Source: Eledone cirrhosa (lineage: Eukaryota). Taken from it: a stretch of 64,000 nt of DNA. Within the stretch, counting starts at the first letter, position 1, and each line of letters opens with the position of its first letter. Under the pieces are notes generated by a model. The model was not told where the DNA came from. It ran no database searches and saw nothing but the letters and a program-made list of their open reading frames with translations. A program made the translations under genes and the position numbers. Where the stretch lies: the NCBI GenBank assembly GCA_964016885.1, contig OZ024740.1:397172001-397236000 (forward strand). The letters run 5' to 3'. Shown here one piece after another: positions 652 to 63,574 of this stretch.

Positions 652-1420
652 CGCTTTGTTCGTTTGTAAACAAACTGAACAGCCTGAATTTTTTATGCCG
701 TACGGTGTTAAGGCAACCACGTCACCTTTTTGTTCAACACTGACACAGGAACGATGTACTAGTTTCAAGCTTGTTAGCTATCATCAGCTGTTCAGTTTGT
801 TTACAAACGAACAAAGCGGCATTATAATAAGCGTCCGCTAAACTGATACGTGCATATATGTATGTGTACCTGTATGTATATATATATATGTATGCTACTG
901 TACGTCTGTATACATATATGTATGTACGTATACACACATACTTACATTTAAGTAAGTGCCGTACTAAGAGTGAGAAATGAAATTTCGTTTTCATTTTATT
1001 TCAACTTATCGTTTTCGGTATGCCTGACCGACTTAGCTCACTCGATATGCAAATTAGGCTGCTCAGCCGTTAATTTTCATAAGGAAAGTATATACTTTCG
1101 AACGTTCAACTATCTGGCAGATGGGTATACGGTGCTGATGATAGCTAACAAGCTTGAAACTAGTACATTGTTCCTGTGTCAGTGTTGAACAAAAAGGTGA
1201 CGTGGTTGCCTTAACACCGTACGGCATAAAAAATTCAGGCTGTTCAGTTTGTTTACAAACGAACAAAGCGGCGTTATAATAAGCGTCCGCTAAACTGATA
1301 CGTGCATATATGTATGTGTACCTGTATGTATATATATATATATGTATATATATATATATATGCATACTACTGTACGTCTGTATACATATATGTATGTACG
1401 TATACACACATACTTACATA
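652..1420 (+). mobile_element. Non-autonomous PLE/retrozyme-like unit: 452-bp period direct repeat with inverted 5' segment
   Basis: 787-~948 is repeated at 1239-~1418. 652-788 is the reverse complement of ~1134-1270. Contains a hammerhead motif and ends in TA-rich sequence. Confidence 0.7.
1129..1171 (+). ncRNA. Minimal type I hammerhead ribozyme
   Basis: Stem I ACGGTG/CATTGT (2 GU); CTGATGA; stem II T-AGCT-AACA-AGCT-T; GAAA; palindromic CTAG loop; predicted GUA cleavage after 1165. An inverted copy at 751-788 lacks the 5' strand of stem I. Confidence 0.8.
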
Positions 1421-1452
1421 TATATTTACATATACATATATATTTACATATA

Positions 1453-2122
1453 CATCATCATCATCATCATCATCATCAACGTTTAACGTCCGTGTTCCAC
1501 GCTTGCATGGGTTTGGACGGGGGTAGTCCCACTTGAGGCAAGAGTGATTGTCTTGCTCGCATAGGACTGTCTGGCAGGTTTTCTACAGTTGGATGCCCTT
1601 CCTAACACCAACCACATTTACAGTGTGGGTCTGGGAGGTTTTTACCGTGTTGCCTACACGGCCACATTACAGCGTGGACTGTGTGTTTTTTTGTCGTGAC
1701 ACCTACACGATCTCATTTGTTTCGGCCTCGATGGCGCGGCACCAACATAACTTTACATAGAACGGGGTGGTGTGGATCGGGTGGGGGTGGTGGTGGTGGG
1801 ACGGGGTGTATTTTGTTAGAGATGCCTACTGGCTGGAGTAGGTTTTACTATATATTTAGGTAAGGCGGGTCTTCTCTGTTACTGAGTACCGCCAAAGGTC
1901 TCGGTCCAGTGACATTGTCTTGGAGAGGTGTAAGTGTGTGATGTCGGAGTTTATCAGCTCGTCCCAGGTTTTTCTAGGTCTGCCTATTCCGTGACTACCG
2001 TCTATCTTTATTGCCCTGCACTTTGTTATACAGCTATCGACTTTCATGCGCATCACGTGTCCATACCAACGTAGCCTTCTCTCGAGTAAACAACGTCTGA
2101 TCCCTCTTATCTCTAATTTTTC
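1453..2122 (-). mobile_element. RTE LINE family A, 5'-truncated 3' end
   Basis: (GAT)n tail and ORF end ..[20 protein letters not shown]..; near-identical to 45124-45785. Confidence 0.9.
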
Positions 2123-60098: not shown

Positions 60099-63000
60099 TA
60101 ACATTATTCTAGAATTTAATTTAATTTAAATGTTAGTTAACCTATAAATTTAATTTAATTAATATTTTATTACAGATGAGAAAATATTATGTAATCATAA
60201 ATTTTGAAAAACCTTTAAATATTACTAATATATACTCAGTAATTTAATTTATAGATTAATTTTAATTTATTTTAACCTTTTATTATAATTTTTTTTATTA
60301 TAATTCTTTTACAGATAAAATATAACAAAATAATATCATGTATCCTATGACGGAGAAAGAATTTTTAGTATTATAGACCTAATTAATATACATTTTGGAA
60401 ATATATTTATTATTTGGTTTTAGTTTTAATCAACATAAAACTTTAATTTTAATTTGCTTAAAATTAGTATCCTTGTACAGACGAATTGCAGAATGTCATG
60501 TAATCATAGAATGGGATGTGTTTTGGATATATACCTAGTTAATATATTCTGTGCAATTTTTTGAAAAAGATATGTATATCTATATGTATATGTATATGTG
60601 TGTGTTGTATGTGTATCTGTATGTATATTTATGTGACTATATATGTATATATGTGTATATATATGTATATATATATATATATATGTGTGTATATGTATAT
60701 GTATGTGTATGTGTATGTATATGTATATGTATGCGTATTAATTTTGATTTTTATTTGCATATAATTATATTATGCTATTGATGAAATACAATATCTGCTT
60801 TATGTATTATATACCTAATTAACATATACTAATTAACGTATACTATTGAAATAAATATATAATTTTTAATTTAGTTAACATATAATTTATATGCTACTAC
60901 CGATGTAATACTTTATTTTATTTTTATTTGGGTTTCTTTTCCCTATTACTAAATTCATCTCCTAATATTGATACCATAACGTTATTAACTTTAATTTAGT
61001 TATAATGTAATTAATAATCTACTACTGTTTGACTTCATAATTCTGCTTCGAATATTATAAACCTAACTAATTTACACCTTAGAAATCAATATGTTGACTA
61101 TCTTTGGTTTAGTTAACATATGATTAATGGTATACTTTTTTATTTTGAGATGCATAGATTTCGTATTTCCTAGCACTGAAAATATGTAAGAACATACATT
61201 GAATTAAGATACGGAAAATATTATATGTTTCTTGAAACATATATTTACTTTGATCCCCTTCTCCAAACCCCCCCTTTCCCCCATACTATTATCATCTGTT
61301 TTTGTAAGCGTATATGTATGAATATATGTGTAGGTGGGTGTCTATATAGGTTTTGGTATTTATTTCTAAATATAAAAATACATATATGAGCATGTAAATA
61401 TGAATGTAAGATTGAGTGTGTATATATGATTGTACATACATATGTATGTATATATATGTATATATATGTATTATATATGTATGTGTATGTGAATGTGTGG
61501 TATGTATATGTGTATGTATATGTATATATGTGTATGTATGTGTATGCTTGTATATAGGAATATATATATGTGTATATATGTATGTATATGTATATGCGTG
61601 TTTGTATGTATGTGTATATGGGTTCTGTATATATTTGTATGTCTCTCTATTTATATGTTTATCTTCGTATCTATGTGTTATATGTGTGTGTGTGTGCACG
61701 TATGCATATGTATGTGTTTGTGTGTGTTTGTATGTGTATGTGTATATATATGTGTATTTGCGCACACTCACATACACATATATATATATATATATGTGAG
61801 TGTGTATGTGTGTCTGTGTGGTTGTGTGTGTGTGTATGTGTATATATATATATATATATATATATATGTATATATATATATATAGATATATATATATATA
61901 TATATATATATGTGTATATAGGTGTCTATGTGTGAATATATGTCTTTATTCGTATGTGTGTATTTATGTATGTATATATTTATGTGTATGTATGTGTGTG
62001 TATGTATGTATGTGTATATATATATATATGTATATATGTATATGTGTATATATATATATATATATATATATATTATTCTTTATTATTATTGTAATATAAC
62101 TTATGTGTATGTGTGTATAAGTGAGGTTGTGTATGTATATATACTATGTGTATATATAAGAGTAATGAAATATATATATATATATATATATGTGCATGTC
62201 TGTTTTTTATGTGTGTGTATATATATATATGTATGTGTATATGTGTATATATATATATATGTGTACGTGTGTGTATGTGGATATATATATATATATATAT
62301 ATATATACATGTGGGTGTTTGTATGTGTATTTATGGTGGTATGAGTGTGTGGATATATATGTTTGTGTATATATATATGTATATGTATATATATATATAT
62401 ATGAGTCTATGTGTGTGTGTATATATATGTATATATATATATATATATATATATATGTATATGTGTGTACGTGTTGCGCGTGAGTGTGTGTGTATTTATA
62501 TCTTTTTATATGTGTATGTGTATGTTCGTGTAAATGTATGTGTGTGTATGACTGTATAGGTATGTGTGTATGTATGTATGTGTAGATATCTCTATGTGCG
62601 CGTACATGTATGTATGTGTATGTATATCTGTATGTGTATGTACATTATATTATATTTATTATATTTTATTGTTTTTATTTTTTTATTTTTCTTAATTTAT
62701 AGATACATTTATATTAGGCAGTCTGGTCTGACAATCTAATACTGACCCCTCCACCCCCCTCCCACCTAATTTCTGTATCTTGATCTTGAAATGTGTGTAC
62801 CAGTGTTTTTATGTGAGTGACTTAATTTCTATTTGCTTATGATTTTATATCCACATATATAAATGTGAGTGGGGGAGTGTGTGTGTTTGTATGTTCGTGG
62901 TTATGTGTATATTTATGCATATACGCACATGTATGTGTGATTATACTGATATGTGTGAGTATGAAAAAAATATATTTATATGCTTGACTCCATAAGTATC

Positions 63001-63574
63001 ATTGCGTATCTTATCAGCGCATTAAGCTTACAGAGATATTAACCTTGAAATTTTGTGTTTGCATCCATCTTTTTACTATGCACATACAAATTATACACAC
63101 ATTATTGTAAAATATGTGTAAGGTTTTTACATGTATATACACACACCAAACTGCTTTTAACCCTTTGTGTTTTCATTGGTCAATTTTGAACTGATATTTT
63201 GAATTGTTGTTATTATCAATAAATATACTTCATTATTTCTGAAGACGGCGTATATATGAGTTAGGTATGTATATTTAATCTTGATAATTTGTATAATTTT
63301 GTATAATTTTGTACATAGATCTGTTAAATATGCATACCAATTATAACACATATATACCCTAGAAACGATCGTTAAATAGTGAACTTTTTTTGTTTAATAT
63401 AAGGAATTGTTTGTTCATTATTTGTTTAATATTTTATCTTGACTCTGTATACCGTTTATCTTTCACCGAAAGTGGATTTTCATTACATCTCTTCTTTCCA
63501 TGATATCCGGAATACATTGAGTTCTTCATACGGATTGGACACTACCGTAAACTCTTGGTAGATTTATCTACATA
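59759..63574 (+). repeat. 3' pseudo-LTR of the PLE (~3.8 kb)
   Basis: Direct repeat of 53693-57504 with few differences; ends GATTTATCTAC followed by (TA)n. Confidence 0.92.
63229..63383 (+). ncRNA. Type I hammerhead ribozyme with long stem II (3' pLTR)
   Basis: Copy of 57159-57313 at +6070. Confidence 0.78.

What the first reader, a model, noticed from the sequence alone, without database searches (positions are those of the whole stretch)
652..63574. Recurring system: three unrelated hammerhead-bearing fold-back inserts of very different sizes in TA-rich sites
Seen: inverted structures with hammerheads occur at 652-1420, 21252-21480 and 51278-63574 (arms ~135 bp, 81 bp and >=2.4 kb). Their ribozymes are unrelated in sequence, yet each has a palindromic loop-III element (CTAG, CTAG, GATC). 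A fourth fold-back (17688-18287) has similar geometry. Known: PLEs carry hammerheads and often have inverted 5' ends. Inference: one autonomous (TA)n-targeting PLE machinery may mobilise several ribozyme RNAs and systematically generate hairpin DNA (snap-back second-strand priming), producing dsRNA substrates in a lineage with heavy ADAR editing.
Basis: partly seen in the sequence, partly recalled or inferred. Interest (0 to 1): 0.75.

Follow-up and report, generated by a model that had tools for sequence, protein, structure and literature searches.

The report
Twin-primed Penelope fold-backs, four separate families
The four mirror-image inserts are real in the assembly and are ordinary insertion products of Penelope-like jumping genes from four different families, one of them a non-coding hitchhiker, and their ends suggest that each was likely made by copying the RNA twice, once from each cut DNA strand, not by one copy folding back on itself.

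Summary
The fold-backs and hammerheads are there, but they are not passengers of one machine. Locus 3 is a full Penelope-like element (PLE) with Hydra-clade motifs. Loci 2 and 4 are truncated 3' ends of two other PLEs, each with its own ORF elsewhere. Only locus 1 is non-coding: a ~490-bp retrozyme with the same insertion footprint; its partner was not found.

Inverted 5' copies, one-sided tails, (TA)n targets and palindromic loop III are published PLE traits. TA flanks are not specific: an RTE LINE control has them in 25 of 30.

Mechanism: 96 of 97 complete fold-backs pair one short and one tailed end. In 38 of 96 neither arm contains the other, which rules out snap-back as the general route. 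Twin priming from both target strands fits best, likely on one sense RNA: inner ends pile up at a predicted start site, and arm pairs agree at recurrent A-to-G sites (25 of 25). Window-specific centres were not confirmed in reads. This scan already reported the same reading on other DNA, including this genome.

The parts
652..788 (-). Family 1 (retrozyme) inverted fragment with hammerhead core. Its outer end is neither the S nor the L end and joins another repeat fragment, so it was probably truncated later. 2-nt overlap (GC) at the junction.
787..1420 (+). Family 1 partial unit (787-949) plus full ~470-nt non-coding unit (950-1420), ending at the short (S) end next to (TA)n. 10,608 exact matches of its 33-mer in the genome.
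950..1009 (+). Family 1 60-nt tail (between S and L ends), here internal to the tandem
1129..1171 (+). Minimal type I hammerhead; U.U at the base of stem II, palindromic CTAG stem-loop III
17687..17919 (-). Family 4 S-ended arm, with an internal deletion (lacks the counterpart of about 17943-18026)
17920..18283 (+). Family 4 L-ended arm: 3' end of a PLE with RT and C-terminal GIY-YIG ORF elsewhere in the genome (unit 3,290 bp; 2,527 exact 28-mer matches)
17995..18028 (+). Hammerhead-like variant (family majority core CAGUUGA...GAAA, palindromic TATA loop), further mutated in this copy; activity untested
21252..21400 (-). Family 2 L-ended arm, including the ~69-nt tail (21252-21318) and a hammerhead (21385-21335)
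21399..21480 (+). Family 2 S-ended arm with hammerhead 21414-21464; centre is a shared TA. It is the pLTR end of an autonomous Hydra-type PLE (unit 5,966 bp in L121; 3,276 exact 31-mer matches).
51078..51277 (.). 200-N assembly gap cutting the left arm of locus 3
51278..53694 (-). Family 3 inverted arm; reaches a few nt further 5' than the direct arm; 2-nt overlap (AG) at the junction
53693..57503 (+). Family 3 5'-truncated tandem copy (pLTR)
57159..57313 (+). Type I hammerhead with a 116-nt stem II region (fold z = -5.7); predicted RNA start at 57162; region of A-to-G excess in the family
57657..60098 (+). Intact 813-aa PLE ORF with Hydra-clade motifs (RWR, DKT, RT YRDD, CxCx5C, GIY-YIG-like YIG, CxxC, CxH) and an Asn/Thr/Lys-rich insert. 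At least 150 genomic places match a 147-aa piece at 100%.
63229..63383 (+). Second copy of the family 3 hammerhead, in the 3' pLTR
63438..63573 (+). Family 3 136-nt tail; the insertion ends at L and runs into (TA)n

Best explanation
These are insertions of three separate autonomous Penelope-like elements and one non-coding retrozyme, and each fold-back was likely built by twin target-primed reverse transcription. Shown in sequence: every family has two fixed outer ends, S and L, 42-136 nt apart (the tail); fold-backs carry one of each; and either arm may be the longer. Shown by others in vitro for an anole PLE (PMC11167929): the protein nicks and extends both target strands and starts at two internal RNA sites that delimit the tail. 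Inferred: the enzyme nicks both strands of a (TA)n target, one strand primes at S and the other at L, both cDNAs run towards the RNA 5' end, and their 3' ends are joined by 0-4 nt of microhomology or a few added bases. Often both run off a capped start just 5' of an uncleaved hammerhead, giving short stubs like locus 2. Inferred, weaker: both cDNAs are copied from one sense-strand RNA molecule. Inferred: the retrozyme (locus 1) is inserted in trans by an unidentified PLE protein, from a template with no fixed 5' end (circular or multimeric RNA).
For: 96 of 97 complete junctions are S+L; the exception is an L end with a small tail deletion. The S arm reaches more than 3 nt further 5' in 38 of 96 (more than 30 nt in 31), the L arm in 28, and 30 are equal within 3 nt. 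In 8 the L arm lies within the tail (allowing 6 nt) and barely or not at all overlaps the other arm. Inner ends cluster in narrow windows: 32 of 52 (family 2), 26 of 104 (family 3), 20 of 68 (family 4). For families 2 and 3 the window is at the 5' edge of the hammerhead, not at its cut site. A non-reference G precedes 10 of 17 arms that start at the predicted +1 A, against 16% G among junction-inserted bases. Arm pairs differ at 0 of 4,417 sites in family 3 against 0.95% between events. One A-to-G site (35 of 98 arms, on several haplotype backgrounds) is concordant in 25 of 25 pairs (11 GG, 14 AA). The family 3 hammerhead shows sense-strand A>G at 9 sites against T>C at 1 (p=0.007). Family 1 has the S+L footprint (12 of 13), tandem units more alike within loci (1.2%) than between (3.0%), and uniform inner ends (KS p=0.83). 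Raw reads of three other samples show loose ends at the family 2 S and L positions running into TA, and strand-switch joints.
Against: 45 of 142 junctions were dropped because an end was missing or inconsistent. Many loci were fetched because they looked like inverted pairs, so they give no fold-back frequency. 28 L-longer cases and some of the 30 equal cases remain compatible with snap-back. Arm identity could come from later arm-to-arm conversion, from assembly polishing, or from two RNAs of one source locus. Non-A>G sites also break the four-gamete test, so recombination can explain recurrence. The A>G excess is absent in families 1, 2 and 4, and upstream of the family 3 hammerhead G>A is as frequent as A>G. 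The start site and cap are predicted, not measured. No partner PLE for family 1 was found, and its tail resembles none of the other three. One family 2 junction occurs identically at two loci (L056, L070) and may not be independent. The window's locus 1 and locus 3 lack a visible second end.
Confidence: 0.75

Rival explanations
1. Snap-back: the first cDNA folds on itself and primes its own second strand, with the copy stopped or cut at S.
For: Palindromic centres with 1-2 nt microhomology are common (35 of 96 have an overlap); arms are near-identical; 28 of 96 have the L arm containing the S arm.
Against: In 38 of 96 the S arm holds sequence absent from the L arm while the L arm holds the tail, so neither can be a copy of the other. 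8 have little or no overlap. S ends also occur on copies with no inverted partner in view (family 4). Equal-length centres often lack a retained loop.
Confidence: 0.1
2. Self-priming on an antisense template, as proposed for rotifer PLEs (PMC3846280).
For: Published interpretation of palindromic junctions and intron retention.
Against: The sense-strand A>G excess in family 3 and a G before the predicted sense start point to a sense RNA template. The model gives no reason for S+L pairing. The in vitro PLE reaction uses target-primed starts.
Confidence: 0.07
3. One autonomous PLE mobilises all the ribozyme RNAs in trans.
For: All four families share the same footprint; family 1 must be moved in trans.
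Against: Family 2 has its own open ORF (L121) and family 3 has many full-length open copies. Family 4 has its own ORF of another clade, seen only in damaged or partial copies. Tails and pLTRs are unrelated.
Confidence: 0.05
4. The palindromes are assembly or library artefacts.
For: Locus 3 abuts an assembly gap; no listed contig piece bridged its centre (inconclusive).
Against: Artefacts would not place fixed S and L ends on opposite arms in 96 of 97 cases, add non-templated bases (51 of 96), or leave arms that differ (1.6% in family 4; 5 substitutions between the locus 3 arms).
Confidence: 0.03

Closest known systems
Complex insertions of endonuclease-positive PLEs (Craig et al. 2021, PMC8557442; Arkhipova et al. 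2013, PMC3846280)
   Same: Partial tandem pLTRs, adjacent inverted 5'-truncated copy, tail at one end only, microsatellite targets, Asn-rich ORF inserts, TATA/Inr-type promoter in the pLTR.
   Different: Those papers ascribe the tail to endonuclease resolution and the inversion to self-priming. The end pairing and arm lengths here favour two primed cDNAs. Tails here are 42-136 nt, against 30-40 reported.
Hydra clade of PLEs (PMC8557442, section 11)
   Same: RWK-like (RWR) and DKT motifs, CxCx5C linker, CxxC and CxH, no CCHH, hammerhead, (TA)n insertion (families 2 and 3).
   Different: Units are about 6 kb because of microsatellite-rich 3' regions, against usually under 3 kb. The family 3 hammerhead has a 116-nt stem II region. 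No tree was built.
Anolis Poseidon PAc in vitro mechanism (Frangieh et al. 2024, PMC11167929)
   Same: Two internal RT start sites bounding the tail, both target strands nicked and extended, AT-rich targets, uncleaved RNA as template, predicted dimer.
   Different: The paper saw no strand difference in start site and, in the main text read, does not link the two sites to the two arms of an inversion.
Metazoan non-LTR retrozymes (Cervera and de la Pena 2020, PMC7229834; Li et al. 2026, bioRxiv 10.64898/2026.07.22.740005)
   Same: Short non-coding tandem units, each with a type I hammerhead (U.U at the base of stem II also in axolotl); PLEs proposed as the mobiliser.
   Different: The parts read give co-occurrence and pLTR homology as evidence. 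Here the retrozyme carries the PLE insertion footprint itself (S/L ends, inverted arm, TA target). No pLTR homology to a partner was found.
LINE-1 twin priming (recalled; search listing only)
   Same: Both target strands prime cDNA, giving a head-to-head join; the 8 tail-only cases have the same non-overlapping geometry.
   Different: Start sites are fixed and internal rather than poly(A)-dependent, and the arms usually duplicate the same sequence.

Membership tests
EN+ Penelope-like element | Single ORF with RT and C-terminal GIY-YIG endonuclease | tested here: met
   Family 4: Pfam RVT_1 E=8e-10, GIY-YIG E=9e-4 (below cut-off); family 2: GIY-YIG E=0.012. Family 3: no relevant Pfam hit, but 45% identical to family 2 over the whole ORF with the motifs in place.
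EN+ Penelope-like element | Partial tandem forming pLTRs | tested here: met
   53693-57504 repeats 59759-63574 at 99.8%; tandem units 5,966 and 3,290 bp in families 2 and 4
EN+ Penelope-like element | Adjacent inverted 5'-truncated copy and tail at one end | tested here: met
   96 of 97 complete junctions
EN+ Penelope-like element | Type I hammerhead in the pLTR | tested here: met
   Families 2 and 3. Family 4 has only a variant with two core substitutions.
EN+ Penelope-like element | RT phylogeny within PLEs | not tested
   No named reference PLE proteins were available; 117 of 118 homologues are unnamed
Hydra clade (families 2, 3) | RWK, DKT, CxCx5C, CxxC and CxH motifs; CCHH absent | tested here: met
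   RWR (conservative variant), DKT, CNCRNKTNC / CNCLNKEAC, CRLC / CDLC, CNH / CMH
Hydra clade (families 2, 3) | (TA)n insertion | tested here: met
   118 of 118 arm ends
Hydra clade (families 2, 3) | Generally under 3 kb (typical, not strict) | tested here: not met
   Units 5,966 and 6,070 bp
Neptune/Nematis clade (family 4) | DKG motif, CCHH in the endonuclease, Zn-finger-like linker | tested here: inconclusive
   DKG codons, CCHH-like residues and a Cys-rich linker read by eye; the linker does not cleanly fit CX2-5CxxC; no tree
Non-LTR retrozyme (family 1) | Short tandem units, each with a type I hammerhead | tested here: met
   Period about 465-540 bp, up to 6 units
Non-LTR retrozyme (family 1) | Non-coding | tested here: met
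   Longest Met-started ORF 70 aa; no continuation into an ORF seen after the L end among the 60 commonest continuations listed
Non-LTR retrozyme (family 1) | Self-cleavage and circular RNA intermediate | not testable with these tools
   Only indirect: uniform inner ends and within-locus unit similarity
Snap-back hairpin product | One arm is contained in the other | tested here: not met
   Fails in 38 of 96

The most novel reading that the evidence does not exclude
PLEs across clades insert by an asymmetric dimer that primes one target strand at S and the other at L on a single sense RNA. ADAR edits in the long hammerhead stem are thereby written into both arms as a molecular barcode, and the same machine copies circular retrozyme RNAs by rolling-circle twin priming. 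This would replace the published self-priming model and give direct footprint evidence for PLE mobilisation of animal retrozymes.
Probability: 0.5. Interest if true: 0.65.

Novelty: new member of a known kind. Interest (0 to 1): 0.42.

Why it matters
The architecture is known, so the elements themselves are ordinary new families. What matters is the mechanism. How PLEs make tandem/inverted insertions is named as open in PMC8557442, and the S+L rule, free arm lengths and arm concordance give predictions that the existing in vitro PLE system can test at once. The retrozyme's PLE footprint supports a long-suspected partnership. Thousands of such palindromes per family could also feed dsRNA pathways, which I did not test.

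Tried and rejected
Rfam scan: only microRNA-like noise from TA repeats among the rows shown; no help. A DNA search for locus 2 returned nothing, not even itself; a pattern search found 3,276 matches. The first S/L classification mis-called family 3 L ends as S through a repeated AT-rich word; fixed with longer signatures. Pfam and PDB gave no useful hit for the family 3 ORF. Partner of family 1: no similarity to families 2-4 and no ORF continuation seen; not identified. Expression: no RNA holder listed. Centre of locus 3: no listed contig piece bridged it, with 6 pieces not shown and the individual possibly different; no verdict. Hyper-editing: none in 510 alignments to the four references. 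TA flank as a hammerhead-specific trait: rejected (RTE control 25 of 30). Hammerhead cleavage as the source of inner ends: rejected, since ends lie at the 5' side of the ribozyme, not at the cut site. A recalled 2017 paper on PLE hammerhead variants was not held, so whether the CAGUUGA core is a described variant is unchecked. Literature searches gave no listing that states twin S+L priming for PLEs; subscription papers and all supplements were not seen.
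Full report
Observation. Self-comparison of the window confirms all four inverted structures. A motif-plus-stem scan finds five strict type I hammerheads, at 1135, 21420, 21379 (minus strand), 57169 and 63239, against 0.02 expected from 100 local dinucleotide shuffles. The palindromic loop III is as described, but it is a general property of metazoan type I hammerheads, thought to allow dimer formation (PMC4209133, passages). Locus 1 has no TA flank on the left. The left arm of locus 3 runs into a 200-N gap. 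Locus 4 belongs to a family with a hammerhead-like variant. The genome is 3.0 Gb and rich in TA repeats; octopus-like is my inference, not a call result.

What each locus is. Locus 3 (family 3) is a complete PLE: inverted arm, truncated tandem copy, and a 6,070-bp unit with an intact 813-aa ORF. At least 150 places match a 147-aa piece at 100%, and its hammerhead 28-mer occurs 1,120 times. Locus 2 (family 2; 3,276 exact matches) is the pLTR end of a second PLE whose open ORF in L121 is 45% identical to family 3. Both carry the Hydra-clade motifs listed in PMC8557442 section 11; no tree was built. Locus 4 (family 4; 2,527 matches) is the 3' end of a third PLE of another clade, with Pfam RT and weak GIY-YIG hits. 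Locus 1 (family 1; 10,608 matches) is a non-coding tandem unit of about 490 bp with one hammerhead per unit, which fits a non-LTR retrozyme (PMC7229834 passages). The pLTRs of the four families share no alignable sequence. The idea of one machine moving all of them therefore fails for three of four.

How common, and is it special. In the first 100 listed matches per family I counted by hand divergent pairs within 11 kb against convergent pairs: 15:2 (family 1), 22:0 (family 2), 29:0 (family 3) and 14:0 (family 4). The denser RTE LINE control gave 6:2. Three of 30 RTE loci (21 with the 5' end in view) had an adjacent inverted piece. TATATA follows 190 of 192 PLE arm ends, against 20-23% for random positions, but also 25 of 30 RTE 3' ends. 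So inversion is enriched in PLE-type elements, while TA flanks are shared with other retroelements.

Junction anatomy. Each family has two sharp outer ends, S and L, separated by a tail of 60, 69, 136 and 42 nt. From 242 merged loci plus the window I found 142 head-to-head junctions and dropped 45 with a missing or inconsistent end. Of the other 97, 96 have one S and one L end; the exception is an L end with a small deletion. The S arm reaches further 5' in 38 (31 by more than 30 nt, up to 5.3 kb), the L arm in 28, and 30 are equal within 3 nt. Junctions show overlap in 35 (29 of them 1-2 nt), are blunt in 10 and carry inserted bases in 51. A snap-back copy must be contained in its template strand. 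Where the L arm has the tail and the S arm reaches further, neither contains the other, so two separately primed cDNAs are needed. This fits the in vitro result that an anole PLE nicks and extends both target strands, starts at two internal sites bounding the tail, uses uncleaved RNA and is predicted to be a dimer (PMC11167929, parts 1-2 of 4). It disagrees with the self-priming reading in PMC3846280 (passages and Discussion). The one-sided tail and inverted copy are already described (PMC8557442, passages).

Where the cDNAs stop. Inner ends cluster in families 2, 3 and 4 (32 of 52, 26 of 104, 20 of 68). In families 2 and 3 this is the 5' edge of the hammerhead, about 30 nt after a TATA-like word in family 2 and at an initiator-like TCATT in family 3 (these promoter labels are recalled). 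A non-reference G precedes 10 of 17 arms starting at that A, as expected if the cap were copied. The start site is predicted only. Family 1 has no such cluster (60 ends, KS p=0.83), and its units are more alike within loci than between. This fits a circular or multimeric template but does not prove one.

One RNA or two, and editing. Paired arms are much more alike than arms of different events (0, 0.26 and 1.6% against 0.95, 1.08 and 3.3%). In the family 3 hammerhead, whose stem II folds into a long hairpin (z = -5.7), sense-strand A>G changes occur at 12 sites against 1 T>C in 100 arms, or 9 against 1 after two diverged arms are removed (p=0.007). One site is G in 35 of 98 arms, on several backgrounds, and agrees in all 25 arm pairs. 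That suggests ADAR-edited sense RNA copied into both arms. Against this: recombination is evident at other sites, edits may be fixed in source copies, arms may convert each other, the other three families show no excess, and no hyper-edited segment was found in 510 alignments. Earlier notes of this scan report hyper-edited PLE copies in this genome; I did not reproduce that.

Reality check. Raw RAD-seq reads from three other samples, laid on a family 2 pLTR, show loose ends at S and L followed by TA, and strand-switch joints near the hammerhead's 5' edge. Related families and library chimeras may contribute. The centre of locus 3 was not bridged by any listed contig piece, which decides nothing. 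The patterned asymmetry of 96 events makes artefact unlikely.

Comparison and novelty. Membership: families 2-4 are EN+ PLEs by structure and motifs; family 1 is a non-LTR retrozyme by the two features testable here. PLE origin and mobilisation of retrozymes has been argued from co-occurrence and pLTR homology (bioRxiv 10.64898/2026.07.22.740005, parts 1-3 of 5; supplements not seen). The shared S+L footprint adds structural support, but the partner is unknown. Searches gave no listing that states S+L twin priming for PLEs; subscription journals are not covered. A repeat annotation of an octopus lists Penelope-like families and, in a term search, no hammerheads or retrozymes (PMC13282606, passages). 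This scan's earlier notes reached the same twin-priming reading on other DNA, in this genome and others. My S+L test came before I saw them; the A>G analysis followed a lead shared with e1-10280452.

Verdict. Real and explained: known PLE architecture, new members of known kinds. The twin-priming mechanism is likely (0.75) and directly testable. Interest 0.42.

Noticed in passing
L006 2050-2290; also L035 1781-2040, L072: Another palindromic, TA-flanked family whose arm reads by eye as a type I hammerhead with the core CAGAAGA (U4 to A). With family 4 (CAGUUGA), that makes two families with a U4A core variant.
   Followed up: no
L004 1995-2085; L081; L133: Further short fold-backs of unrelated families in (TA)n beside the studied copies; such insertions often sit next to each other in the same TA tract.
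   Followed up: no
L122-L123 (G000:C1:83679791-83691712): Twelve tandem ~1.08-kb units carrying the family 2 hammerhead, attached to a family 2 ORF copy: a pLTR array that looks like a retrozyme or satellite being born from an autonomous PLE.
   Followed up: partly
L128, L131, L135: [quoted passage not shown]
   Followed up: no
window 1437-2121, 12096-15443, 37006-38947, 40612-43323, 44180-48604: Several RTE-type LINE copies with (CAT)n tails; used as control, and they also end next to (TA)n.
   Followed up: partly
window 5442-8259: 48-bp minisatellite array derived from the RTE 3' region.
   Followed up: no
window 476-651 and L006 900-1270: The same repeat fragment, Mariner-like by recall, lies beside family 1 copies at two loci.
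   Followed up: no
L099 and L235; L199 and L201; L056 and L070: Identical junction sequences at separate loci, suggesting truncated source copies that are transcribed, or re-mobilised palindromes.
   Followed up: no
L015: Family 1 tandem units show a three-unit higher-order pattern of variants.
   Followed up: no
window 59080-59380: About 95-aa Asn/Thr/Lys-rich insert in the family 3 ORF, absent from family 2; like the N-rich inserts of rotifer PLEs.
   Followed up: partly
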